The translations under genes were made by a program, and so were the position numbers. Below are positions 1 through 63,318 of a stretch of DNA of 64,000 bases, piece by piece; position 1 is the first letter of the stretch, and the number at the start of each line of letters is the position of its first letter. This stretch comes from Kiritimatiellia bacterium. GTDB lineage: Bacteria; Verrucomicrobiota; Kiritimatiellia; RFP12; UBA3636. The notes beneath the pieces were generated by a model, which made no database searches, had not been told where the DNA came from, and was given only the letters and a program-made list of their open reading frames with translations. The stretch is from assembly GCA_017481725.1 (NCBI GenBank), contig JAFUOX010000061.1:19467-83466 (forward strand). Direction: 5' to 3'.

Positions 1-35
1 AACACAAAAATAACGAAAACGAAGGAACAGCAATT

Positions 36-2498: not shown

Positions 2499-4265
2499 AT
2501 GGCTAATGTCACTGTAACAATCAACGGACTAAAGGTTTCCGTTCCAGCAGGCTCTACAATTCTTGAGGCTGCTAATAAAGTAAATATCCACATTCCAACC
2601 TTGTGCTATTGCCCAGATGTTGGTGGTGGTGTAGCAAATAAACCAGCTTCTTGCCGTCTATGCCTTGTTGAGGCAACAGGTATCCGTGGCCCACGTGCTA
2701 TCCTAGTACCTGCTTGTGCAACTCCAATTGAGCGTGATGGTATTGAGGTATTTACAAACTCTCTACGTGCTATGAAGTCTCGCCGCACAGTTCTAGAGCT
2801 ATTGCTTTCAGATCACTCTGGCAATTGCTTGACTTGTGCAAAGAATGGCGAGTGTGAGCTTCAGAAGCTTGCTCAGGAGTTCGGTATTCGTGAGGTTTCA
2901 TACCAGGGCGTTCAGAACGAATTTCCAATCGATACTTCTACAGCAATTATGCGCGATCTAAATAAGTGCGTAATGTGTCGTCGTTGCGAAACAGTATGTA
3001 ACAAGGTTCAGACAGTTGGTGCTCTAACTGGTAATGGCCGTGGCTTTGCTGCTAAGGTTGGTACTGCTAGCATGATTCCTCTAGCTGATACTTCTTGCAC
3101 ATTCTGTGGTCAGTGCGTAAATGTTTGCCCAGTTGGTGCTATTACAGGCGTATCCTATGTTAAGAAGGTATGGTCTGCAATCTGCGATCCTACAAAGACA
3201 GTTATTGTTCAGACAGCTCCTGCTGTTCGCGTAGCAGTTGGTCAGGAGTTTGGCTTCAAGGCTGGCGAGCCAGTAACAGGCAAGCTAGTAGCTGGTTTGA
3301 AGGCACTCGGCTTTGATAAGGTATTCGATACAGACTTCTCTGCTGACTTGACAATTATGGAAGAGGGTACAGAGCTAGTAAATCGTGTTAAGGAAGGTAA
3401 GAATCTACCAATCCTAACATCCTGCTGCCCAGGCTGGATTAACTTCCTAGAGCATCACTATCCAGATCTACTAGATATCCCATCTTCATGTAAGTCACCA
3501 CAGCAGATGTTTGGTGCAGTTGCTAAGACATACTATGCTGAGAAGATTGGTGTTGATCCAAAGAACTTGGTTGTTGTATCAATTATGCCTTGCCAGGCTA
3601 AGAAGTACGAGGCAGGTCGCGCTGAGTTCGAGCATGATGGTGTTAAGGATGTTGACTATGTTGTTACAACTCGCGAGCTAGTACGTATGTTCCGTGAGGG
3701 TGGTATCAACCTAGCAAACCTAGAGGATGCTGAGTATGACAATCCACTAGGTGAGTCAACTGGTGCCGCTGTTATCTTCGGTGTAACAGGTGGTGTGCTT
3801 GAAGCAGCACTTCGCTCTGTATACTGGATGCTAAATGGCAAGAACCTAGAGGGTGATGCAATCAACTTCCGCGCAGTACGTGGTCTTGATGGCGTTAAGG
3901 AAGCAAAGGTTGATGTTGCTCCTGGCGTATCAGTAAACGTAGCAGTATGCTCAGGTTTGGGTAACGCACGTAAGGTGCTTGATATGGTTCGCGCAGATCG
4001 CAATCGCTTCCAGGCAATTGAGATTATGGCTTGCCCAGGCGGCTGTATCAATGGTGGTGGTCAGCCATACATCAATGGTGACCGTAAGGCAGCTCTTGCA
4101 GCTCGCATGGAAGGCATTTATGCTGAGGATGCTGGCAAGGAGAAGCGCCTATCACATGAGAATAGTGATATTAAGAAGCTCTACGAGGAATTCCTTGGTG
4201 AGCCAGGCGGTGAGAAGGCTCATCACCTACTACACACTCACTACTGCTCAAACGCACGTGACTAA
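2499..4265 (+). CDS. hydA: [FeFe] hydrogenase catalytic subunit
   Basis: 588 aa; H-cluster motifs TSCCPGW, MPCQAKKYE, EIMACPGGCINGGGQP; N-terminal 2Fe-2S/4Fe-4S ferredoxin domains; AAGGAG RBS. Confidence 0.9.
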   Translation: MANVTVTINGLKVSVPAGSTILEAANKVNIHIPTLCYCPDVGGGVANKPASCRLCLVEATGIRGPRAILVPACATPIERDGIEVFTNSLRAMKSRRTVLELLLSDHSGNCLTCAKNGECELQKLAQEFGIREVSYQGVQNEFPIDTSTAIMRDLNKCVMCRRCETVCNKVQTVGALTGNGRGFAAKVGTASMIPLADTSCTFCGQCVNVCPVGAITGVSYVKKVWSAICDPTKTVIVQTAPAVRVAVGQEFGFKAGEPVTGKLVAGLKALGFDKVFDTDFSADLTIMEEGTELVNRVKEGKNLPILTSCCPGWINFLEHHYPDLLDIPSSCKSPQQMFGAVAKTYYAEKIGVDPKNLVVVSIMPCQAKKYEAGRAEFEHDGVKDVDYVVTTRELVRMFREGGINLANLEDAEYDNPLGESTGAAVIFGVTGGVLEAALRSVYWMLNGKNLEGDAINFRAVRGLDGVKEAKVDVAPGVSVNVAVCSGLGNARKVLDMVRADRNRFQAIEIMACPGGCINGGGQPYINGDRKAALAARMEGIYAEDAGKEKRLSHENSDIKKLYEEFLGEPGGEKAHHLLHTHYCSNARD

Positions 4266-4516: not shown

Positions 4517-6517
4517 TTATTGATTGCTATCTTGGTCAATAAATATTATTTCAGGATTGTTATTAAAGAAAAATTTTTTAATATTACCTTCAAACCTTCT
4601 GGGGATTGATATTTTCTTTAAATTATTGCAGTTTAAAAAAGCCCAATCAGCAATTTCTGTTACACTGTTTGGAATTTCGATTTCCGTTAAATTATTACAG
4701 TAATCAAATGTGCAATATTCAATTTTAGTTACACTATCAGGAATCTTGATGCTTTTTAGGCTTTTGCAGCAATAAAAAGCGCTACTACCAATAGAAGTTA
4801 CGCTATTAGGAATTTCAATGGCAGTTAAATTATCACAGCCAGCAAATGCGCTACTACCAATAGAAATTACGCTATTAGGAATTTTAATGGCAGTTAAATT
4901 ATCACAGCCAGCAAATGCACTATACCCAATAGAAGTTATACTATTAGGAATTTCAATGCTTTTCAGGTTGGTACAATTTTCAAAAGTACTTTTATCGATA
5001 GAAGTTAATCCATTAGGAAGCTTAATGCTTTCTAGGCTTGTGCAGTACGAAAATGCACTATCTTTTATATTTTTTACCTCACCTGTAAATTCAATAAATT
5101 TAAGATTTTCACAATTGCTGAATGCATAGCGATCAATGTATGTTATGTTTTCAGGAATTTTTATACTAGTTAAGCCATTACATCCAGAAAAAACAGAATT
5201 TCGAATAAGGCTTAGTTTATTAGAAAATTTTATGTCTTTTAAACTTTCGCAATGGAAAAATGCATATTGTCCTATGCTTATTATACTATCTGGCATCCCG
5301 ATGCTAATAATGCTCTTGCATCCAGAAAAAGCATAATCCTCTATGTCGGTAACACTGTTCGGTATTGCAATATTGGTTAGGTTGGTACAACAACTAAAGG
5401 CGGCTTCACCTATAATTTTTACTTTGTCGGGAATAGTAAATGTTTTTTTATCTGGAGCACACCAAAATATTTTTGTTTGATCTTTATTATACAAGGCTCC
5501 GTCACTAATAAGGTACTCCGTGTTGCCATCCTGAAGATTTATTTCCGTTAGTTTGTGGCAATTTTTAAAAGCGCCAAGACCAATATATGTTATGCTATTA
5601 GGAATATTGATATATGTTAAATTAGAACAACTCTCAAATGCTCTAGGTCCAATATGTATGAGACTGTTAGGAATATCTATTTTAGTTAAACTGCTACAGT
5701 TGTTAAATGCTTTTATACCAATATGTGTTAAGCTGTCAGGAAGCTTAATATCTATTAGGTTTCTACAAAATGAGAATGTGCTAGTGTTAATATGTGTGAT
5801 ACTATTGGGAAGAGTTATGCTGGTCAGATTGTCGCAACTTGCAAATGCACGTTTTTCTATATTAGTTACGCCATTAGGTATTTCAAGCTTCATTATGCTA
5901 TAACATTGAAAAAATGCAGCTTCTCCAATGTTTGCTAGTGTTTTAGGAAGAAGTATTTTTGATACATTATTGCATCCCCAAAATGTTTCCTTCCCTATAT
6001 GGGTTATTCCCTCGGGGATAGTGACTCTTTTTAATTCATGGCAATTATAAAATGTTTTATCTCCAATACGAGTGATTCCATTAGGTAAGTCAACTCTGAT
6101 TAAAATTCTGCAGTCATAAAATACACTTTCCCCCATATAAGTTACGCTGTCAGGTATTTCGATTGTTCTCAAGAGATGGCAGTATGAAAAAGCTTCATCC
6201 CCAATGTGAATTACGCCCTCAGGAATTTGGATGTGTGTTAGTTCTTTTTGCCAAGAGAAAGCTCTATCTTGTATTTTTACAACTTGTTTTCCTCCCAAAG
6301 TATTTGGGATAACAACTTTTCCAGCAAATTGTTCACCTCTAACAATTACGGCATTGTTATTAGAGTCAACTATGTAACTCCAAATATTACCATCTACCTC
6401 CTCCTTGCAAATGATTTTTGATGCATCTGTCTGCTCATTATTTTCTATAGAAGTTTCAATATTGCCGTATACATTAAAAATACAGCTAAAAATAAAAATA
6501 GATAGGATTTTTTTCAT
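4517..6517 (-). CDS. BspA-type leucine-rich-repeat surface protein (signal peptide MKKILSIFIFSCIFNVYG)
   Basis: about 22-aa repeats of the form IxIPxSVTxIGxxAFxxCxxL throughout. The ORF track starts at 6541, but MKKIL at 6517 is the more likely start (signal peptide). Confidence 0.8.
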   Translation of the reverse strand: MKKILSIFIFSCIFNVYGNIETSIENNEQTDASKIICKEEVDGNIWSYIVDSNNNAVIVRGEQFAGKVVIPNTLGGKQVVKIQDRAFSWQKELTHIQIPEGVIHIGDEAFSYCHLLRTIEIPDSVTYMGESVFYDCRILIRVDLPNGITRIGDKTFYNCHELKRVTIPEGITHIGKETFWGCNNVSKILLPKTLANIGEAAFFQCYSIMKLEIPNGVTNIEKRAFASCDNLTSITLPNSITHINTSTFSFCRNLIDIKLPDSLTHIGIKAFNNCSSLTKIDIPNSLIHIGPRAFESCSNLTYINIPNSITYIGLGAFKNCHKLTEINLQDGNTEYLISDGALYNKDQTKIFWCAPDKKTFTIPDKVKIIGEAAFSCCTNLTNIAIPNSVTDIEDYAFSGCKSIISIGMPDSIISIGQYAFFHCESLKDIKFSNKLSLIRNSVFSGCNGLTSIKIPENITYIDRYAFSNCENLKFIEFTGEVKNIKDSAFSYCTSLESIKLPNGLTSIDKSTFENCTNLKSIEIPNSITSIGYSAFAGCDNLTAIKIPNSVISIGSSAFAGCDNLTAIEIPNSVTSIGSSAFYCCKSLKSIKIPDSVTKIEYCTFDYCNNLTEIEIPNSVTEIADWAFLNCNNLKKISIPRRFEGNIKKFFFNNNPEIIFIDQDSNQ

Positions 6518-7064: not shown

Positions 7065-7152
7065 GCTTTCATTTGGGGGTTATGATAGAATAGTCTTAAT
7101 TAAATAAGTTTACGCGAGGGCGTTGTGCTAATCCTTAACAATTTTTTTTACA

Positions 7153-7689
7153 ATGAGCAACAAAATCTATCTGCAGGCTAATCAACTATATAATGACAGC
7201 TTTGCGTTAGCAAGGCAAATTTATGACTCTGGCTTTGTGCCTGATGCTTTAATTGCATTGTGGCGTGGTGGATCTCCTGTTGGCATTGCTGTGCATGAAT
7301 TTTTCCTTTATAAAGGAATTAAATTCTATCATACAATTGTAAAGACAGTATCATATACTGGTATAAATGAAAGCAAAGAGCCGATTGTTGAAAATTTGGA
7401 CTATGTTCTAAACAACATTAGCAAAGGCTCAAAGGTTCTTGTGGTTGATGATATTTTTGATACTGGCTCAACAGCACGTGTGATGAAGGAAAAGCTTTCT
7501 CCAACAGGGTGTGAAGTGCGATTTGCAATGCCATATTATAAACCAGCAAGAAATAAAACAGATTTGGTGCCGGACTTTTTTGTTAAAAAGGTTGATGAGT
7601 GGTTGGTTTTTCCTCATGAGCTTTGTGGACTCACGGCAGAGGAAATTAAACAGAGAGATTTGTTTCTTGCAGAGCAGCTAGGTCTATAA
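7153..7689 (+). CDS. phosphoribosyltransferase family protein (purine PRTase-like)
   Basis: 178 aa; PRPP-binding motif VLVVDDIFDTGST. Confidence 0.65.
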   Translation: MSNKIYLQANQLYNDSFALARQIYDSGFVPDALIALWRGGSPVGIAVHEFFLYKGIKFYHTIVKTVSYTGINESKEPIVENLDYVLNNISKGSKVLVVDDIFDTGSTARVMKEKLSPTGCEVRFAMPYYKPARNKTDLVPDFFVKKVDEWLVFPHELCGLTAEEIKQRDLFLAEQLGL

Positions 7690-53728: not shown

Positions 53729-53830
53729 AATTTCCCCTAATCGCCAAAATCAAGATTAGGGGAAATTTTTTTAAGCCATAAAAAATTTCCCCTAAATTTA
53801 AAAAACGGCTTTAGGGGAAATTTTATTGTT
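53729..53830. repeat. two tandem hairpins with identical 12-13-bp stems (AATTTCCCCTAA/TTAGGGGAAATT)
   Basis: hairpin 1 at 53729-53767 followed by a T-run; hairpin 2 at 53784-53822; located between the MTase and ATPase genes. Confidence 0.6.
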
Positions 53831-53883
53831 GTATTACCATGCGTAATTTTGTTATATTAAATGCTATAAAAAGGAGTATGGTC

Positions 53884-55314
53884 ATGTTTATTGGTAGAGA
53901 AAATGCTTTGGATCAGTTAAATGCGCTGTTGCAAAAACAAACCGCATCTCTTGTTACTTGTAGAGGACGTCGACGAATCGGTAAGAGTACTCTTATTGAA
54001 GTTTTTGCAGAACGCTCTAAAAGCAGATTTATTAAATTAGAGGGGCGTCGTCCAGAAAAAGGACTAACTAACAATGACGAACTTGCTACTTTTGCTAAAC
54101 AACTTGCTAACCAAACATCGATAGAATCAACACCTCCATCCAACTGGTTGGATGCGTTTAGAAGAATTGATTCACAAATAAATGATTCTGAGCGTACTGT
54201 TGTCTTGCTCGATGAGGTATCGTGGATGGCATATTATGACAAAAGTTTTGCCTCTGACCTTAAAATGGCTTGGGATAATTTATTCAAAAAACATAAAAAA
54301 TTAATTTTTGTTGTTTGTGGTAGTGTCTCAACATGGATACGAGAAAATATTGTAGATAATGGTGCTTTCTTGGGAAGACGCTCATTGGATATCGTTCTTA
54401 AAGAATTACCAATTTCAGATTGTGTTAAGTTTTGGGGTAAAGCAGCTTCGCGTATAGATGAAAGAGAAATTATAGATGTTCTTTCTGTCACAGGCGGTGT
54501 TCCTAGATATCTAGAGGAGATAAATCCTTCGCTTTCAGCTTTTGAAAATATTAGACGTCTTTGTTTTATGCCTAATAGTATTCTAAGAACTGATTTTGAC
54601 GAAATGTTTAATGATGTAATAAGTAAAGAACAAGACTTTTCTGCCCAAGTCCTTAGATGTTTAGCGGATGGTTCTAAAACGGGTACGGAAATTTCTAAAA
54701 TGCTTCGAGTAGATAAGGGAGGTAGAGTTTTTGCTGCGTTAAGACGATTAGAAGAAGCCGGGCTTGTTTCTAGTGATGTATCTATCAATCCTGAGACAGG
54801 AAAACCATCAAGAGAAATTCGCTTTCGTTTAAGAGATAATTATTCTAGGTTTTATATAAAATATATAGAACCAATGAAAAGAATTATTGATGATGGTGCA
54901 TTTGATTGTGTTTCTTTAGAAGCATTAGAAGGAATAGAAACCGTACTAGGTTTAGCATTTGAAAATTTAGTAGTTAATAATTATAGAGAGCTAATCCCAC
55001 TAATCAATTTAAAAGGGACTTTGGTTACATCTGCTGCACCATATAGACGTGTTGGTGGAAACAAAAAAGGATGTCAAATAGATTTGCTTATACAAACAAG
55101 AAGAACCATTTGTGTTGTCGAGATAAAGCGTCGTCAAGAAATTGGCAGAGAAATAATAAATGAGGTAGACAATAAAATAAGAGCGATAGAACGCCCTTCT
55201 GGAGTTTCGGCAAGGGCTGCACTTGTTTATTTAGGACATCTTTCTCCAGTTGTTGAGGCCGATGGATATTTTGATTCTATTATTCATTTTAGAAAAGTAC
55301 TTGGATTATCCTGA
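53884..55314 (+). CDS. ATP-binding protein, ATPase_2 (archaeal-type ATPase)/DUF234 family with C-terminal PD-(D/E)xK-like motif
   Basis: FIGRENALDQL...CRGRRRIGKSTLI (Walker A), LLDEVSW (Walker B). IDLLIQ...VVEIKRRQE resembles a nuclease-fold D...ExK. Start chosen 7 nt after AAGGAG (53884); the ORF-track start is 53839. Confidence 0.7.
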   Translation: MFIGRENALDQLNALLQKQTASLVTCRGRRRIGKSTLIEVFAERSKSRFIKLEGRRPEKGLTNNDELATFAKQLANQTSIESTPPSNWLDAFRRIDSQINDSERTVVLLDEVSWMAYYDKSFASDLKMAWDNLFKKHKKLIFVVCGSVSTWIRENIVDNGAFLGRRSLDIVLKELPISDCVKFWGKAASRIDEREIIDVLSVTGGVPRYLEEINPSLSAFENIRRLCFMPNSILRTDFDEMFNDVISKEQDFSAQVLRCLADGSKTGTEISKMLRVDKGGRVFAALRRLEEAGLVSSDVSINPETGKPSREIRFRLRDNYSRFYIKYIEPMKRIIDDGAFDCVSLEALEGIETVLGLAFENLVVNNYRELIPLINLKGTLVTSAAPYRRVGGNKKGCQIDLLIQTRRTICVVEIKRRQEIGREIINEVDNKIRAIERPSGVSARAALVYLGHLSPVVEADGYFDSIIHFRKVLGLS

Positions 55315-58176: not shown

Positions 58177-61100
58177 ATGAAAAAGATTATATCGATATTG
58201 TTTGCATTTGTTACCGTGTTGTCTATTGATGCTTTTGCGGCATGGACAGTTGTTTCTGAAGGAAATAATCCACAGGTAACAGATGGGAACTGGGTAATCC
58301 AATTAAATTCAAAGTATAAAGCCATGTTTGTTTCAAAGTCTAGCACAAGCACTGTTCTTGATATGTCAACCTTGAATAGCGACTTGGCTGCTGCTGGTCA
58401 TTCGTATAAATGTACTGAGTTTGATGCAAATGGCTTCCGAGGTAACGCTTATGCTATTCTAAAAACAGAGTTTACGGAAATTTATTTCCCAGATGAGGTT
58501 ACAAAAATCGGTCAGCAGTGTTTCCAAAATTGTAATGCCCTAGTAACAGTTGAGTTAGGAAGTAGCTTCACCTCTTTTGCTAATACTCACGGCTTTTCAC
58601 AGTGTCATTCATTAACGACATTATACACACGTGGAGAAGAAAAGGTTGTTGGTACAATTAAGCTTCCTGATGCGGTTACAACACTTCCAAACTACACATT
58701 TGAAGCCTGTAAATCATATACTAATATGATTGCTAGAGGTGTAAAAAAAATTGGACAGGCAACATTTTATCAAAATGAAGCAGTATGTAGCATTGAGCTA
58801 TCTCCAGAGTTATATTCTGTAACTAGTGGTACTGATCAAGGAACATTTTATTTCTGTAAATCGCTCTCTACTCTTTCTCCTTCAAAAATGAAGCTTACCG
58901 AGTCTGTTGGACAAAGTGCTTTCCGTGAAATTCCTTTGACTCATGGTCTTGATTTTTCTGAGTCAACATTTACCTATGTGGCTAATAATTCTTTTTATGG
59001 TATAGCATTGCCTAATGATAAAAAAATTATTTTGCCTTCAACATTAAATAATGTTGTGTCAGGTGCTTTTCGCCAGCAACAGAATGGCAAAACGCTATAT
59101 GTGAACCTCCGTTTTCTTGGTGAGGTTCCTGTAACTTTGGGAACAGACTGTTTTACTCCAAAAGAACAAAAAACACATAATGTATTATATGTTGATGCAA
59201 AGAAGTGCACATCTTGGACAGCACAAAATTTCACTCCTCTAACAGAGGATATGAAGAGCGAAGCCTCTTATCCTGGAGAGAAGACACTTGGTAAGTCAAC
59301 AATTGGTGTGAACCAAAGCGGCTGGTGGAACTGGCTAGTTCAAGAGGATCTTCCAAAGGGTCCAACAGAGTGGAATATTGTTTCAGAAAATGATGATGGC
59401 TCTATCACAATCTATAATACAACAGAAACATGGACCCTTAATCTAATCCCTGATGGCGATGGCTATCTAGTAAAATATGTTTCAGATGAAATCGCAGAAG
59501 GCACTCTAATGGATCTAGAGCTAGTAAAGATTTCTGATGACCTAGATATCAAGCTCAATGGTCTAGCAGATGAAGCATTTAAGGGCGTAACATCTATTGG
59601 TACACTTGTAATTCCAACAGGTGCCGATAAGCTAGGCGACTATGCACTACAAAACTGCACAAGCCTAACAGCAGTAACTCTTCCTTCCGGCTTTAATTAT
59701 AATGAAGCAGGTAAGGGTGCATTCAAGGGCTGCTCAAGTCTAAGTATTGTAGGTCTTTCAACTCAATCAATTACTGCAGGTGTTGTTGTGCTTCCAGATA
59801 GTGTTACATCAATATCTGAAGAACTATTTGCAGGTTGCACAAGCATCACACAAGTTACCGGTAAGGGAGTTGCTACAATTGGTGCAAATGCTTTTGCTAA
59901 TGCTTCTGCTCTTGCACGTGTTGCATTCTCTAAGGATCTTGGTGCGCTAACCTTTGGTGAGGGATCATTCATGGGTACAGCACTTACTCAGACAATTGAT
60001 TTAACACAAACACCAATGACAAAAATTCCAGCAAATGCATTTGCAAATTGCTCTGGAATTTCACTTGTTATTGTTCCTGCATCAATAACTGAAATCGGTG
60101 CTAATGCATTTGCTAATATGGCAGGTGGCGCAAATATTAGCTTTGCTGGTTCTGTTCCAACGCTTGGTGCAAATGCTCTAATGCCTTCAAGTGGTGCCGC
60201 AGGTTCTCGTTATGTTATCCGTGTAGAGGATGAGTATAAGGCATCATGGCAGGAAAATGGCTTTACAGCTATTACAGATTCTATGATGGAAGAGTCAGAT
60301 TATTATTCAAACTTCTATGTAGGACAAACTACTGTTGGTACAGACGGTACTGCAAACTGGATGTTCTGTAAAGATCCTTCAAAGACTTGGTGGATTAGTG
60401 GTGTTGGTACATATACACGCCCAGATAACAATCAGAAAATTTCTACTCAGACTGTAACTGATGGCACATACATAATGCATGTAGTTAAAGACGGAGGAAA
60501 GCTATATCTTGCTCCAAGTGTTTGTGTTGCTGGTGGTGTTCTTGATATGTCAACATTGGATGTTGATACTGGTCTTGAGCTAGTGGCTCTACATACAAAA
60601 GCTTTCAATAAATTTGAAAATACACCTGCTGTTGTAAGACTGCCTGATAGTATGACATCTGTCGGTTATCAAGCATTCCACGAAAATAAGAAAATTGTTG
60701 AGGTTGAACTAGGTGCTGGCATCACATCATTAGGTGATAGCCCATTTAGAGAGTGCGTGGCTTTCTCTACAATGTATCAACGCGGAACAGCAGAGCGCAT
60801 TGAGGGTCAGGTAAATATCCCTGCAACAGTAACATCTATTTCTACTGGTGCAGAATTCTTTAATTGCGATGGCATTAAAGAGGTTATCGCTCCTGGAGTA
60901 GTTGTTGTAGGTCATTCAACATTCTACGAGTGCAGCTATGTCACAAATATTGTTTTATCTCCTGATCTTTATGAATTTAAGGCAGGTGGGCAAGGTGCTT
61001 TCTATCAGTGTAAGTCGCTAAAAACAATTAGTCCAAATGAGATGAAGCTTGTAGCAACAGGCTCCGGAACCTTCCGTGAGTTACGTCTTTCCCATGGTTT

Positions 61101-61566
61101 GGATCTGTCTAAGAGTACATTCACATATGTTGGCGATAAGGCTTTCTATGCAACAAAGTGTACTGATGAAAATGGCTTTGCATGCCCAATGGTAATGCCA
61201 AAGACTGTTACAAAACTAGATGGACAGGCATTCTGGGGCCAGAATGGAAATGGTAATCAGATTATCGTCTTCAAGGGTGATAAGCCTACAAGCGTTCAAT
61301 CAAACTCGTTAGATACAAATAATAATGGTTTAAATACTCTTGTAGTAGATGCAGAGACATATCCAGATTGGTTAGATTCTAGTGAGTTTACACCTGCTTC
61401 AGAGCTTCCTGAGGCTGATGTTGCAAAGATTAATCTTCAGCTTAATTCAAATCCAAATTATCCAGGAATTAAGGTTCTTGGTAAACTATCAACAGGAACA
61501 GCTGGAAAATACTTAAACTGGATTGCTCAGCTTGAACAGCCTTTGACTATGATTATCGTTAGATAA
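58177..61566 (+). CDS. large BspA-type leucine-rich-repeat surface protein (1129 aa) composed of two tandem ~350-aa modules
   Basis: signal peptide MKKIISILFAFVTVLSIDAFA; module start VLDMSTLNSD.. (res ~60) repeated as VLDMSTLDVD.. (res ~780); LRR units xAFxxCxxLxxVxLP. Confidence 0.8.
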   Translation: MKKIISILFAFVTVLSIDAFAAWTVVSEGNNPQVTDGNWVIQLNSKYKAMFVSKSSTSTVLDMSTLNSDLAAAGHSYKCTEFDANGFRGNAYAILKTEFTEIYFPDEVTKIGQQCFQNCNALVTVELGSSFTSFANTHGFSQCHSLTTLYTRGEEKVVGTIKLPDAVTTLPNYTFEACKSYTNMIARGVKKIGQATFYQNEAVCSIELSPELYSVTSGTDQGTFYFCKSLSTLSPSKMKLTESVGQSAFREIPLTHGLDFSESTFTYVANNSFYGIALPNDKKIILPSTLNNVVSGAFRQQQNGKTLYVNLRFLGEVPVTLGTDCFTPKEQKTHNVLYVDAKKCTSWTAQNFTPLTEDMKSEASYPGEKTLGKSTIGVNQSGWWNWLVQEDLPKGPTEWNIVSENDDGSITIYNTTETWTLNLIPDGDGYLVKYVSDEIAEGTLMDLELVKISDDLDIKLNGLADEAFKGVTSIGTLVIPTGADKLGDYALQNCTSLTAVTLPSGFNYNEAGKGAFKGCSSLSIVGLSTQSITAGVVVLPDSVTSISEELFAGCTSITQVTGKGVATIGANAFANASALARVAFSKDLGALTFGEGSFMGTALTQTIDLTQTPMTKIPANAFANCSGISLVIVPASITEIGANAFANMAGGANISFAGSVPTLGANALMPSSGAAGSRYVIRVEDEYKASWQENGFTAITDSMMEESDYYSNFYVGQTTVGTDGTANWMFCKDPSKTWWISGVGTYTRPDNNQKISTQTVTDGTYIMHVVKDGGKLYLAPSVCVAGGVLDMSTLDVDTGLELVALHTKAFNKFENTPAVVRLPDSMTSVGYQAFHENKKIVEVELGAGITSLGDSPFRECVAFSTMYQRGTAERIEGQVNIPATVTSISTGAEFFNCDGIKEVIAPGVVVVGHSTFYECSYVTNIVLSPDLYEFKAGGQGAFYQCKSLKTISPNEMKLVATGSGTFRELRLSHGLDLSKSTFTYVGDKAFYATKCTDENGFACPMVMPKTVTKLDGQAFWGQNGNGNQIIVFKGDKPTSVQSNSLDTNNNGLNTLVVDAETYPDWLDSSEFTPASELPEADVAKINLQLNSNPNYPGIKVLGKLSTGTAGKYLNWIAQLEQPLTMIIVR

Positions 61567-61633: not shown

Positions 61634-61780
61634 ACACTGTTTGTCTTGTGGAGAGATTTGACGCTAGAGCTTGCGTCCATTTGGATTCATGAACACCAAT
61701 GGGCATGCTATTGCACGCATGCCTATGGCGTGAACAAGTATGATGTGTGAGCTATCATGTGCACAACAAATCCATTCTTT

Positions 61781-61821
61781 CTATTTTAGAAAAATGTAAA
61801 AAAGTTAAAAATCTAAAATAG
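61781..61821. repeat. 41-bp palindromic repeat copy 1 (CTATTTTAG-N23-CTAAAATAG)
   Basis: ctattttagaaaaatgtaaaaaagttaaaaatctaaaatag. Confidence 0.75.
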
Positions 61822-61855
61822 GTTGTTGATTTTCTGCTTACAAAATGATACATTT

Positions 61856-61896
61856 CTATTTTAGAAAAACACAAAAAAGTTAAAAATCTAAAATAG
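61856..61896. repeat. 41-bp palindromic repeat copy 2, ending 8 bp before the ATPase start codon
   Basis: ctattttagaaaaacacaaaaaagttaaaaatctaaaatag. Confidence 0.75.
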
Positions 61897-61904
61897 AGAT
61901 ACCT

Positions 61905-63137
61905 ATGAAAATTAAAAGAGACTTTTATTTGACACAGCTAATTGATCGAAAGCATAATCGGATGATCAAAATAGTGAGTGGTATTAGGCGATGTGGCAAA
62001 TCATATTTACTGTCCGAATTATTTACTCAACATTTACTAGATGAAGGTGTTGATAGGCATCATATCATACATATTGATTTAGATACTAGAGACAATTTAG
62101 AATATAGGAATCCAGATGCATGTAATCAATATGTAAAATCATTAATTAAGGATGATAACATGTACTATCTTCTTTTGGACGAGGTCCAATTGATGGAGGA
62201 CTTTGTTAGTGTTTTAAATGGCTTTTTGCATATTAAAAATCTTGATGTTTATGTAACAGGAAGCAATTCAAAGTTTTTATCATCTGATATTGTCACAGAA
62301 TTTAGGGGACGCGGTGATGAAATAAGGGTATATCCATTAAGCTTTGCAGAAATTTATCCTATTTATGACAACAATTGGGAGAAGGCCTGGGGTGATTACA
62401 CTGTTTATGGTGGAATTCCTTTAGTTTTTACCTATAAAAAGGAAGAAGACAAGGTTAAGTATTTGAAAAATTTGTTTAAAGAAACCTATTTAAAGGATAT
62501 TATTGAGAGAAATAGAATTAAAAGCACAGAGGAGCTAGAGGAATTATTAAATATATTAGCATCTAACATAGGTTCTTTGGTTAATCCCCAAAAATTGACC
62601 GCAACCTTTAAAAGTGTAAAAAAAGTGGACTTGTCAGCTCCAACAATAAAGCAATATTTAGATTATTTACAGGATGCATTTTTTGTTAATAAAGTACTTA
62701 GGTATAATATTAAGGGGAAGAAATATATTAATACACCATTTAAGTGTTATTTTACAGATATTGGATTAAGGAATACTAGCCTTTATTTCCGCCAAATAGA
62801 AGAGACACATATTATGGAGAACATCATATATAATGAATTACAAATTCGTGGTTATAATGTAGATGTTGGGGAGGTGAATATAGGCGGCAACAGAATGACA
62901 GAGGTAGATTTTGTAGCAAATCTTGGCAACAAGAGGTATTATATTCAATCTGCATTAACTATGCCAACGGTAGAAAAAATTATGCAGGAAAAGAAATCCT
63001 TACTAGGGATAAGAGACGGCTTTAAGAAAATAATTATTACAAAAGAGAATATATTGCGAGCATATCAGGATGAGGATGGAATAACCATTATGAGTTTAAA
63101 AGAATTTCTTTTAAATAAGAACAGTTTAGATATATAG
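61905..63137 (+). CDS. AAA+ ATPase with C-terminal DUF4143-like domain
   Basis: 410 aa; Walker A GIRRCGKSYLL, Walker B LLLDEVQ; C-terminal EVDFV segment typical of DUF4143. Confidence 0.75.
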   Translation: MKIKRDFYLTQLIDRKHNRMIKIVSGIRRCGKSYLLSELFTQHLLDEGVDRHHIIHIDLDTRDNLEYRNPDACNQYVKSLIKDDNMYYLLLDEVQLMEDFVSVLNGFLHIKNLDVYVTGSNSKFLSSDIVTEFRGRGDEIRVYPLSFAEIYPIYDNNWEKAWGDYTVYGGIPLVFTYKKEEDKVKYLKNLFKETYLKDIIERNRIKSTEELEELLNILASNIGSLVNPQKLTATFKSVKKVDLSAPTIKQYLDYLQDAFFVNKVLRYNIKGKKYINTPFKCYFTDIGLRNTSLYFRQIEETHIMENIIYNELQIRGYNVDVGEVNIGGNRMTEVDFVANLGNKRYYIQSALTMPTVEKIMQEKKSLLGIRDGFKKIIITKENILRAYQDEDGITIMSLKEFLLNKNSLDI

Positions 63138-63140
63138 AAT

Positions 63141-63181
63141 CTATTTTAGAAAAATGTAAAAAAGTTAAAAATCTAAAATAG
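63141..63181. repeat. 41-bp palindromic repeat copy 3, starting 4 bp after the ATPase stop codon
   Basis: ctattttagaaaaatgtaaaaaagttaaaaatctaaaatag, identical to copy 1. Confidence 0.75.
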
Positions 63182-63318
63182 GGAACATTTCTCCCCGTAG
63201 AACTTAGTACCCCACATTCGAGTATCCCTTAGCTTTCCTTTGAATATATATTTTTTGTGAGTCTGCAAAAGAAAAATGCAAATAACACATTTTTTATTGT
63301 AGAAAGAATAGCACTAGT

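What the first reader, a model, noticed from the sequence alone, without database searches (positions are those of the whole stretch)
61781..63181. AAA+/DUF4143 ATPase gene precisely bracketed by a 41-bp palindromic repeat (3 copies)
The repeat ctattttagaaaaatgtaaaaaagttaaaaatctaaaatag has 9-bp inverted ends (CTATTTTAG/CTAAAATAG). It occurs 75 bp and 8 bp upstream of the ATPase ATG and again 4 bp after its stop codon. Copies 1 and 3 are identical. The gene is thus delimited like a cassette. The repeats might be recombination sites (attC- or dif-like), MITE-type insertion footprints, or transcription terminators/attenuators reused on both sides. Stand-alone AAA+DUF4143 ATPases are widespread and poorly understood, and a defined mobile cassette context would be informative.
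Basis: seen in the sequence. Interest (0 to 1): 0.55.

Follow-up and report, generated by a model that had tools for sequence, protein, structure and literature searches.

The report
Self-contained ATPase-nuclease gene cassette with operator-like repeats
The three 41-base palindromic repeats are real and belong to a portable one-gene unit: two copies sandwich the gene's own promoter, the outer pair marks exactly the 1360 bases missing from a related genome, and relatives of this very common but uncharacterised candidate anti-phage gene carry the same layout.

Summary
The repeats lie at 61781-61821, 61856-61896 (3 mismatches) and 63141-63181, around a 410-aa AAA_14+DUF4143 gene (PADLOC candidate PDC-S01).

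The repeat is not scattered. A scan of 185,579 species genomes found this repeat sequence at two loci only: this locus and a related MAG.

That MAG (L015) holds the syntenic empty site. It has the same flanks, one copy of the repeat and no ATPase. The missing segment is exactly 1360 bp, the copy 1 to copy 3 distance.

Homologues in unrelated contexts keep the layout: copy 1, a sigma-70-type promoter, copy 2, the gene, and sometimes copy 3 a few bases after the stop. One example (81% identical) sits between the portal and protease genes of a lambda-like prophage.

- 64 of 98 loci have a significant upstream pair, mostly 70-79 nt apart.
- The repeat sequence differs between lineages but keeps a nested dyad symmetry.

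The predicted protein is Orc1/Cdc6-like: AAA+, lid and an apparent winged helix, followed by a PD-(D/E)XK nuclease.

My best reading is that the repeats are binding sites for the cassette's own protein, giving autoregulation. Recombination between the bracketing pair removes, or possibly re-inserts, the cassette. Binding is inferred, not shown. MITE, terminator, attC, dif and CRISPR readings fail.

The parts
61780..61822 (+). Repeat copy 1 (T + 41 nt + G). It ends 3 nt upstream of the -35 hexamer and is the left boundary of the cassette and of the 1360-bp indel.
   Evidence: Searches give the coordinates. One search shows that homology with cassettes in other genomes begins here. One search shows that L015 aligns up to window 61822.
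61826..61854 (+). Inferred sigma-70-type promoter TTGATT-17 nt-TACATT, with TG at 61846-61847 (extended -10). It fills the spacer between copies 1 and 2.
   Evidence: Read from the sequence. It scores only 8 of 12 consensus positions, so the scan did not list it. It is placed by homology: L043 has TTGATT-17-TATAAT and L101 has TTGATT-17-TATATT at the same offset (-79 to -50), and 42 of 64 loci have TTGnnn-16..18-TAnnnT between their two copies.
61855..61897 (+). Repeat copy 2 (centre CAC instead of TGT). It starts 1 nt after the -10 hexamer and ends 8 nt before the ATG, so it probably covers the transcription start and the 5' UTR.
   Evidence: Across homologues copy 2 ends at a median of -10.
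61905..63137 (+). The only gene of the cassette: 410 aa with AAA_14 and DUF4143 domains, matching PADLOC PDC-S01. The predicted domains are AAA+ (1-155), lid (158-203), a three-helix plus beta-hairpin element that looks like a winged helix (208-283), and a PD-(D/E)XK nuclease (about 300-380).
   Evidence: PDLC04787, E 8e-114. AlphaFold2 model, pLDDT 82, pTM 0.86. Foldseek hits to 2fna and to Orc1/Cdc6-DNA complexes 2qby and 2v1u. Walker A GxxxxGKS, Walker B DE, and E305, D320, E333, D335, Q348 and K358 are invariant.
63140..63182 (+). Repeat copy 3, identical to copy 1. It starts at the 4th base after the stop codon and is the right boundary of the cassette.
   Evidence: One search shows that homology with L101 and L043 ends here. 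One search shows that L015 aligns from window 63140 onward.
61823..63182 (+). The 1360-bp segment (promoter, copy 2, ATPase gene, one repeat) that is absent from the syntenic empty site. It can equally be written 61780-63139.
   Evidence: The single repeat at L015 4947-4989 aligns with both copy 1 and copy 3, and tblastn finds no ATPase in L015.

Best explanation
The three repeats are cis elements of a self-contained, horizontally transferable one-gene cassette. The gene is a PDC-S01-type AAA+/winged-helix/PD-(D/E)XK protein.

Shown:
- Copies 1 and 2 sit directly upstream of the -35 hexamer and directly downstream of the -10 hexamer of the cassette's own promoter. They are about 75 bp apart, roughly seven helical turns.
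- This layout is kept across the protein family, while the repeat sequence changes with the protein lineage and keeps a nested dyad symmetry.
- The repeat occurs nowhere else in the genome.
- A related genome has the same site with a single repeat and no gene.

Inferred:
- The sites are operators bound by the cassette's own product, through its apparent winged-helix domain. Binding would repress a potentially toxic nuclease gene and insulate it from whatever operon the cassette lands in.
- Copy 3 is a duplicate of copy 1 placed right after the stop codon. It makes the outer pair direct repeats, so recombination between them deletes the cassette precisely and leaves a solo site. The excised circle could in principle re-enter at a solo site.

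Whether that recombination is simple homologous exchange or slippage between 43-bp identities, or is catalysed, is not known.
For: The repeat is unique to this locus. There is no other copy in the window. Of 36 hits to CTATTTTAG-N23-CTAAAATAG in 185,579 species genomes, only the source species (L034) and L015 carry this repeat's centre sequence.

The same three-copy layout occurs around an 81%-identical gene inside a prophage head module, with spacings of 73 and 1284 nt against 75 and 1285 nt here. It also occurs in L101 and L182.

Across 98 loci, 64 have a significant upstream pair. In 44 of those 64 the spacing is 70-79 nt. Copy 2 ends at a median of -10. In 42 of 64 a sigma-70-like promoter lies between the copies, with the -35 hexamer about 5 nt after copy 1 and the -10 hexamer about 2 nt before copy 2.

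The sites are lineage-specific but symmetric. In 21 non-redundant sites, complementarity within a site is 0.76-0.86 at 3-8 nt from the centre and 0.67-0.90 at 12-20 nt. The control, pairing arms from different sites, gives 0.25-0.56.

Paralogues in one cell have different sites. L053 carries two DUF4143 genes, each with its own repeats. The window's PDC-S27 ATPase has its own pair, TTTCCCCTAA-N-TTAGGGGAAA. This argues against a shared host factor.

The protein model shows an Orc1/Cdc6-like arrangement with a wing-like hairpin carrying conserved basic residues. Residues 203-258 are the least conserved stretch of the protein.

The empty site with a solo repeat and an exact 1360-bp difference is shown. 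A second solo case comes from prophages L080, L081 and L084, which keep the copy-3 repeat of the 410-aa ATPase behind a different DUF4143 gene.

Copy 1 lies upstream of the promoter, and in L072, L075 and L077 copy 3 lies after an intrinsic terminator. The sites therefore act as DNA rather than RNA.
Against: There are no binding or expression data, so the claim that the ATPase binds its own sites is an inference from co-variation and fold.

The window's own promoter is weak by consensus (8 of 12) and was not called by the scan.

Half-sites 9 bp long separated by 23 bp are unusual for a simple dimeric repressor.

Only 4 of 62 loci with a strong upstream pair have a strong third copy. The bracket is therefore not essential to the family, and repression alone does not explain its fixed position 1-4 nt after the stop codon.

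The solo site in L015 comes from one MAG assembly. A collapse across the 43-bp repeat cannot be fully excluded without the reads.

The direction of the event, deletion or insertion, is not resolved.
Confidence: 0.55

Rival explanations
1. The repeats are dedicated recombination (att-like) sites. The cassette would be a small mobile element that excises as a 1360-bp circle and integrates at a cognate site, catalysed by its own AAA+/PD-(D/E)XK protein or by a host enzyme. The promoter-flanking position would be secondary.
For: The presence/absence difference is bounded exactly by the repeats, and a solo site remains. A solo repeat is also left in the prophage hotspot, joined 3 nt after the stop codon of a different gene. 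Copy 3 starts 1-4 nt after the stop codon in eight lineages, including window, L043, L064, L080, L101, L115, L157 and L182, and where it was scored it resembles copy 1 more than copy 2. Homology between cassettes in unrelated genomes stops at the repeat edges. Several loci have 28-214-nt direct duplications of host DNA around the cassette. The nested arms with an unpaired spacer recall the geometry of a folded attC site.
Against: More than 90% of family members lack copy 3. Each exact protein variant that I looked up sits in a single genomic context: P0011, P0012 and P0095. That is unlike an active mobile element. No recombinase is nearby. A 43-bp perfect direct repeat can be deleted by ordinary homologous recombination or slippage. 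Copies 1 and 3 drift independently between strains. Regulation explains the fixed placement of copies 1 and 2 around the promoter better.
Confidence: 0.2
2. The repeats act as RNA hairpins. Copy 2 would be a 5'-UTR stabiliser or translational attenuator, and copy 3 a 3' stabiliser or terminator.
For: Each copy folds better than shuffled sequence (-6 to -6.9 kcal/mol, z -4 to -6). Copy 2 is probably transcribed and in L043 overlaps the Shine-Dalgarno sequence.
Against: Copy 1 lies upstream of the promoter. The stem contains only A-T pairs apart from its closing pairs, the loop is 21-23 nt, and no U-run follows, so no terminator was called on the + strand. In L072, L075 and L077 copy 3 lies beyond a real terminator. 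All three positions share one design.
Confidence: 0.05
3. The sites are iteron- or ORB-like elements of a replication origin, and the Orc1/Cdc6-like ATPase is an initiator. The cassette would be a mini-replicon.
For: The best Foldseek matches include Orc1/Cdc6 bound to origin DNA. The repeats bracket an AT-rich spacer next to the gene. From general knowledge, archaeal ORB elements lie beside cdc6, and P1 iterons lie on both sides of repA.
Against: The cassette sits in chromosomes and inside a prophage structural operon. The spacer is a conserved promoter. There is no helicase or loader gene. The protein carries a nuclease domain rather than an initiator-specific module.
Confidence: 0.05
4. The repeat is a MITE- or REP-like dispersed element, or the similarity is due to chance or assembly.
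For: It is short, palindromic and AT-rich.
Against: Apart from the empty-site copy, the repeat occurs only at this locus among all species genomes scanned. None of 100 shuffles reproduces it. It is present in at least 7 independent assemblies. The position is conserved in homologues.
Confidence: 0.02

Closest known systems
PADLOC phage-defence candidate PDC-S01 (AAA_14 + DUF4143, COG1373)
   Same: The protein matches model PDLC04787 over its full length (E 8e-114) and has both Pfam domains. The literature describes an ATPase fused to a PD-(D/E)XK nuclease and ranks PDC-S01 as the fourth most common 'defence system' in prokaryotes, with frequent horizontal transfer (PMC12988326, PMC3424549, PMC10782964).
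   Different: The papers I could search say nothing about cis elements. The promoter-sandwiching repeats, the optional third copy and the solo-site polymorphism appear to be undescribed. Anti-phage activity of PDC-S01 has not been validated (PMC12988326).
Integron gene cassettes with attC sites
   Same: A single ORF is followed within a few bases by an imperfect palindrome with nested arms. The cassette is gained or lost precisely at that site. Different cargo genes occur in front of the same site (L080 against L043).
   Different: There are no RYYYAAC/GTTRRRY core sites, no IntI integrase and no array. The cassette has its own promoter with two more copies of the site around it. The site is 41 nt, against 57-141 nt for attC (attC properties are from general knowledge).
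Autoregulated genes whose operators lie on both sides of the promoter or of the gene (gal OE/OI and lac O1-O3 looping, C-protein boxes of restriction-modification systems, P1 repA between incC and incA iterons)
   Same: Repeated sites for one protein are placed in helical phase upstream and downstream of the promoter. In P1, further sites lie beyond the 3' end of the gene.
   Different: Here the presumed binder is an AAA+/nuclease protein, not a small repressor. The sites are 41-bp nested palindromes. Binding has not been demonstrated. The comparison rests on general knowledge.
Archaeal Orc1/Cdc6 and its ORB elements; archaeal AAA+ protein SSO1545 (PDB 2fna)
   Same: They share the AAA+, lid and winged-helix arrangement. 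The repeated dyad elements lie next to the gene that encodes the protein.
   Different: This protein has an added C-terminal PD-(D/E)XK domain. There is no evidence of origin function. Sequence similarity is undetectable.
Solo LTRs: deletion between the flanking direct repeats of an element
   Same: The occupied allele has a repeat on both sides and the empty allele keeps exactly one repeat.
   Different: The repeats are 43 bp rather than hundreds of bp, and there is no reverse transcription or integrase.

Membership tests
PDC-S01 / AAA_14+DUF4143 (COG1373) | Full-length match to the family HMMs | tested here: met
   PADLOC PDLC04787, E 8e-114, residues 3-405. Pfam AAA_14, E 3e-31, and DUF4143, E 1.5e-19.
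PDC-S01 / AAA_14+DUF4143 (COG1373) | Intact P-loop ATPase motifs and a PD-(D/E)XK-type C-terminal domain | tested here: met
   G26/G31/K32/S33 and D92/E93 are invariant. E305, D320, E333, D335, Q348 and K358 are invariant. The model has an alpha-beta-beta-beta-alpha-beta core at 300-380, and Card1/Can2 nucleases appear among the fold hits. Which residues are catalytic is inferred.
PDC-S01 / AAA_14+DUF4143 (COG1373) | Protects against phage | not testable with these tools
   It is only a candidate in the literature (PMC12988326). Circumstantial support: it shares a prophage cargo hotspot with a SoFic-like Fic gene.
Integron cassette / attC | R''/R' core sites RYYYAAC ... GTTRRRY | tested here: not met
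   The arms are CTATTTTAG / CTAAAATAG, with no GTT core.
Integron cassette / attC | IntI tyrosine recombinase and attI nearby, with cassettes in an array | tested here: not met
   Gene tables covering 10 kb on each side show no recombinase family. The locus holds a single cassette.
Integron cassette / attC | Promoterless ORF | tested here: not met
   A conserved sigma-70-type promoter lies between copies 1 and 2.
MITE / REP dispersed repeats | Many copies at unrelated loci in the genome | tested here: not met
   Only this locus in the representative genome of the species, plus one solo copy at the same locus in a relative.
Intrinsic terminator | GC-rich stem, short loop, U-run | tested here: not met
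   AT-rich stem, loop of 21-23 nt, no T-run. The scan did not call it on the + strand.
CRISPR array | Regularly spaced repeats with variable spacers, and cas genes | tested here: not met
   Only two adjacent repeats. The 34-nt 'spacer' is a promoter conserved in homologues. No cas genes are present.
dif / pdif Xer modules | 28-bp site with 11-6-11 XerC/XerD arms | tested here: not met
   The geometry is 9-23-9 and the sequence changes with the ATPase lineage. The dif definition is from general knowledge.
Autoregulatory operator sites | Sites overlap or abut the core promoter of the regulated gene | tested here: met
   Copy 1 ends 3-5 nt before the -35 hexamer and copy 2 starts 1-2 nt after the -10 hexamer, here and in 42 of 64 homologous loci.
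Autoregulatory operator sites | The gene product binds the sites and changes transcription | not testable with these tools
   Indirect evidence only: lineage-specific sites, paralogue-specific sites, and a winged-helix-like domain.

The most novel reading that the evidence does not exclude
PDC-S01 genes may not be, or not only be, defence genes. They may be a new kind of minimal selfish element: a single AAA+/winged-helix/PD-(D/E)XK protein that recognises the nested palindromes at the ends of its own cassette and promotes its excision and insertion. That would explain why these genes are found 'embedded' inside other operons, which is the very property used to nominate them as defence candidates. 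It would also explain the solo sites, the fixed junction a few bases after the stop codon, and the variable 28-214-nt host duplications around some cassettes.
Probability: 0.15. Interest if true: 0.85.

Novelty: new variant of a known kind. Interest (0 to 1): 0.62.

Why it matters
PDC-S01 is reported as one of the most abundant 'defence' loci in prokaryotes (about 39,000 hits in one survey, PMC12988326). Nothing is known about how it works or how it is controlled.

A conserved, lineage-specific pair of nested palindromes around its promoter gives a concrete DNA ligand to test against the protein. It also explains how a nuclease gene can be dropped safely into any operon.

The occupied and solo alleles give a natural assay for gain and loss of the cassette. 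The second ATPase-nuclease of the window (PDC-S27) has an analogous pair of palindromes, so the principle may extend to related ATPase-nuclease genes.

Tried and rejected
Searches that added nothing:
- Rfam found only a tRNA in the window.
- NCBIfam gave no match and the PDB sequence search gave none.
- BLAST of the prophage region against the INPHARED phage collection gave only fragmentary hits.
- Viral-contig scans for the exact window-type repeat (0 hits) and the prophage-type repeat (5 hits, four on contigs already held) showed no new configuration.

Attempts to find an empty site through proteins:
- The exact look-up of the upstream LRR protein found nothing.
- The look-up of the cation-efflux neighbour found only occupied strains.
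- The empty site eventually came from re-reading the hits.

Test for IS-like multi-context copies: P0012 and P0095 each occur in a single context, so high mobility is rejected.

Logan contigs of 1377 and 1390 bp: I considered them as evidence of a circular form and rejected this. A k=31 de Bruijn graph breaks at a 43-bp repeat and gives those lengths without any circle.

Strict concerted evolution of copies 1 and 3: rejected, because strains L004 and L187 carry private changes in one copy.

Mutual-information analysis between winged-helix residues and operator arms: not attempted, because about 20 independent lineages are too few to control for phylogeny.
Full report
**1. The observation**

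The 41-nt sequence CTATTTTAGAAAAATGTAAAAAAGTTAAAAATCTAAAATAG occurs at 61781-61821 and 63141-63181. These two copies are identical, and the identity extends to 43 nt with the flanking T and G. A third copy with three central mismatches (TGT to CAC) lies at 61856-61896. No shuffle of the window produced a match, and there is no other copy in the 64 kb.

The ORF at 61905-63137 encodes 410 aa with AAA_14 and DUF4143 domains. Copy 2 ends 8 nt before the ATG, and copy 3 starts at the fourth base after the stop.

**2. The repeat is not scattered**

I scanned one genome for each of 185,579 species for CTATTTTAG-N23-CTAAAATAG and got 36 loci. Thirty-four are single hits in unrelated taxa with unrelated centre sequences, which is chance level.

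One hit, L034, is a Kiritimatiellia MAG that carries the same three-copy locus and is the source species. One other, L015, carries a single copy with exactly the window's centre sequence.

**3. The empty site**

L015 is an uncultured Verrucomicrobia MAG (contig CALDQE010000051.1). It has the same upstream LRR gene, the same terminator and intergenic segment, one copy of the repeat (4947-4989), the same right flank and the same 434-aa LRR gene. tblastn finds no ATPase.

blastn aligns the window up to 61822 with L015 up to 4989, and the window from 63140 with L015 from 4947. The right flank is 97.4% identical. The difference is therefore exactly 1360 bp, the copy 1 to copy 3 period, and one repeat is left behind.

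The caveat is that this is one MAG assembly and I could not inspect the reads. All strains that share the exact cation-efflux neighbour are occupied.

**4. The repeats travel with the gene**

The protein has thousands of relatives. One of them, P0011, is 81% identical and sits in a completely different place: between the portal gene and the S49 protease gene of a lambda-like prophage.

It has the same layout: two related repeats 73 nt apart upstream, and a third 1284 nt further on, directly after the stop. L101 (73-75% identical) and L182 (53%) also have three copies, again with copy 1 identical to copy 3.

Alignment of five cassettes from unrelated contexts shows that similarity begins at the left edge of copy 1. 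Where copy 3 exists, similarity ends at its right edge. L053 and L100 have the upstream pair but no third copy.

**5. A family-wide promoter sandwich**

I collected 19 viral and 80 metagenomic loci with relatives 43-81% identical. I compared their flanks with a script.

- 64 of 98 loci have an upstream repeat pair scoring above the 99th percentile of shuffled controls.
- The start-to-start spacing is 70-79 nt in 44 of those 64.
- Copy 2 ends at a median of -10, and copy 1 at a median of -86.
- In 42 of 64 loci a TTGnnn-16..18-TAnnnT promoter lies between the copies. Its -35 hexamer starts about 5 nt after copy 1, and its -10 hexamer ends about 2 nt before copy 2.

In the window the corresponding hexamers are TTGATT (61826-61831) and TACATT (61849-61854), preceded by TG. 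This is weak by consensus and was not listed by the promoter scan. I placed it by homology with TTGATT-17-TATAAT in L043 and TTGATT-17-TATATT in L101.

**6. What the site looks like**

The repeat sequence differs from lineage to lineage. Examples are:

- CGAAGAAAAAGTGGCAATATTGCCAAAAATTCTTCG in L168
- CTATTGAACAAAAATGCGGATTCCGCAATTTTGTTCAATAG in L116
- CTATTCGGAAACTGTGTGACAAATGCACACTATTTTCGAATAG in L182

The design is constant: outer arms of 7-12 bp, an inner short palindrome, and A-rich linkers between them.

I measured this in 21 non-redundant sites. Complementarity within a site is 0.76-0.86 at 3-8 nt from the centre and 0.67-0.90 at 12-20 nt. Pairing the arms of different sites gives 0.25-0.56. 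At 9-11 nt, the linkers, complementarity drops to control level.

In the window's clade the arms CTATTTTA/TAAAATAG are kept down to 66% protein identity (L200), and the inner palindrome has decayed. Between strains of the source species, the few changes fall mainly in the centre of the repeat.

**7. Why the sites act as DNA and are probably read by the cassette's own protein**

Copy 1 lies upstream of the promoter. In L072, L075 and L077 the third copy lies beyond an intrinsic terminator. The same design is therefore used where it cannot be in the transcript.

As an RNA hairpin it is weak (-6 to -7 kcal/mol, loop of 21-23 nt, no U-run), and it is not called as a terminator.

The cassette works in hosts of different phyla and encodes one protein, and its sites change with that protein. 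Two paralogues side by side in L053 have different repeats. The window's other ATPase-nuclease (53839-55314, PDC-S27) has its own pair, TTTCCCCTAAT-N13-ATTAGGGGAAA and TTTCCCCTAAA-N13-TTTAGGGGAAA, at 53731-53765 and 53786-53820.

The AlphaFold2 model (pLDDT 82, pTM 0.86) shows these domains:

- an AAA+ core
- a helical lid
- three helices plus a beta-hairpin at 208-283, with a conserved basic hairpin (R266, K270, K272, K280)
- an alpha/beta nuclease-like domain

The best structural matches are the archaeal AAA+ protein 2fna and Orc1/Cdc6 bound to origin DNA, followed by STAND NTPases and Card1/Can2 nucleases. DUF4143 is classed in the PD-(D/E)XK superfamily (PMC3424549).

From all this I infer that the protein binds its own sites and represses its promoter. 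This step is not shown.

**8. The third copy and cassette turnover**

Only 4 of 62 loci with a strong upstream pair have a strong third copy. In each it matches copy 1 best and starts 2-4 nt after the stop. Weaker third copies occur in L064, L115 and L157 at +1 to +3.

The prophage portal/protease junction is a cargo hotspot:

- Some phages have the two genes abutting, which is the empty state (L083, L086, L090).
- Some carry the 410-aa ATPase cassette.
- Some carry a SoFic-like Fic gene.
- One (L091) carries a gene for a 167-aa repeat protein that looks secreted.
- Some (L080, L081, L084) carry a different 442-aa DUF4143 gene with its own upstream repeats (TTCCATCCGAAAAGTGT, three copies). 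Three nucleotides after its stop, this gene is followed by the copy-3 repeat and terminator of the 410-aa cassette.

That is a second case of a repeat left behind when its gene is gone.

Recombination between copies 1 and 3 explains both cases. It would release a circle carrying the promoter, copy 2, the gene and one repeat. Whether the exchange is passive (43-bp identity) or catalysed is open.

Two results argue against frequent transposition. Exact protein variants occupy one context each. Copies 1 and 3 accumulate private changes in some strains.

**9. Comparison with known systems**

The protein is a member of PADLOC PDC-S01. This candidate was nominated because such genes are found embedded in other defence operons (bioRxiv 10.1101/2024.01.29.577857). 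It is now counted among the most common 'defence systems' but remains untested (PMC12988326, PMC13356809). COG1373 is also listed among genes shared between gut genera (PMC10782964).

None of the papers I could search mentions flanking repeats.

The cassette resembles an integron cassette in being an ORF followed at once by a nested palindrome, and in being gained or lost at that site. It fails every defining feature of attC and integrons: core sites, integrase, promoterless ORF and array. It also fails the definitions of MITE, CRISPR, dif and intrinsic terminator.

Functionally it is closest to autoregulated genes with operators on both sides of the promoter. In having sites on both sides of the gene, it is closest to iteron-controlled replicon genes. 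Those comparisons rest on general knowledge.

**10. Verdict**

The family-wide architecture and the solo-site polymorphism appear to be new, and they make an abundant, uncharacterised gene family directly testable.

Noticed in passing
window 53731-53765 and 53786-53820 (gene 53839/53884-55314): The window's second ATPase (Pfam ATPase_2, PADLOC PDC-S27) has its own pair of palindromic repeats just upstream of its start: TTTCCCCTAAT-N13-ATTAGGGGAAA and TTTCCCCTAAA-N13-TTTAGGGGAAA, 55 nt apart. The design principle matches the PDC-S01 cassette.
   Followed up: partly
L078-L099 (prophage portal/protease junction), e.g. L083 3496-3501, L079 2073-3500, L080 1817-3500, L091 1919-3006: The junction between the portal and S49 protease genes of a lambda-like prophage family is a cargo hotspot. 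It is empty in some phages. In others it holds the 410-aa PDC-S01 cassette, a 442-aa DUF4143 gene, a SoFic-like Fic gene, or a gene for a 167-aa YGYNAHGDYVP-repeat protein that looks secreted. All occupied versions share a roughly 60-nt portal C-terminal extension and AGAAAGTAAAGGTT repeats before the protease ATG.
   Followed up: partly
L114 1106-1319 / 2757-2970; L112 1238-1326 / 2848-2936; L141 1343-1370 / 2760-2787; L158 1302-1344 / 2781-2823; L100 2503-2550 / 3951-3998; L168; L126: Several cassettes are flanked, outside copy 1 and beyond the stop codon, by direct duplications of host DNA 28-214 nt long and 81-100% identical. In L114 and L112 the duplicated piece is the 3' end of the neighbouring gene. 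Control pairs gave 0 of 96 such hits. These could be long variable target duplications or Campbell-type integration; this remains unexplained.
   Followed up: partly
L053 2186-3484 (- strand) and 3525-3618: A second, divergent DUF4143 gene lies head-to-head with the 411-aa homologue. It has three 30-nt palindromic repeats (AATCACATTTTTGCAAGGAAAAAATGTAAA) spaced 32 nt apart in its upstream region.
   Followed up: no
window 61640-61780: A 140-nt segment with higher GC content and two strong hairpins (GACGCTAGAGCTTGCGTC and GGCATGCTATTGCACGCATGCC) lies between the terminator of the LRR gene and copy 1. It is conserved in the empty-site genome L015 (4810-4946), so it belongs to the host rather than the cassette. 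It may be a small RNA or a regulatory element.
   Followed up: no
L044, L047, L050, L051 about 7130-7411: Some prophages of the same family carry an extra segment of about 270 nt between the head-decoration (HDPD) gene and the major capsid gene that is absent in others (L043, L045). Other family members have an AAA_15/AAA_21 ATPase gene within or beside the head-gene region (L048, L051).
   Followed up: no
window 58177-61566 and 63416 onward; L001 16262 onward: The cassette sits among several large BspA-type LRR_5 surface-protein paralogues that diverge quickly between strains. The upstream LRR gene is only 78-83% identical between the window and L015, against 97% for the neighbouring DNA.
   Followed up: no
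L004-L006, L103 (Logan contigs of 1377-1504 bp): Many close homologues are found on contigs barely longer than the gene. For this cassette the lengths 1377 and 1390 bp are what a k=31 graph gives when it breaks at the 43-bp repeat, so they are not evidence of a circular form.
   Followed up: yes
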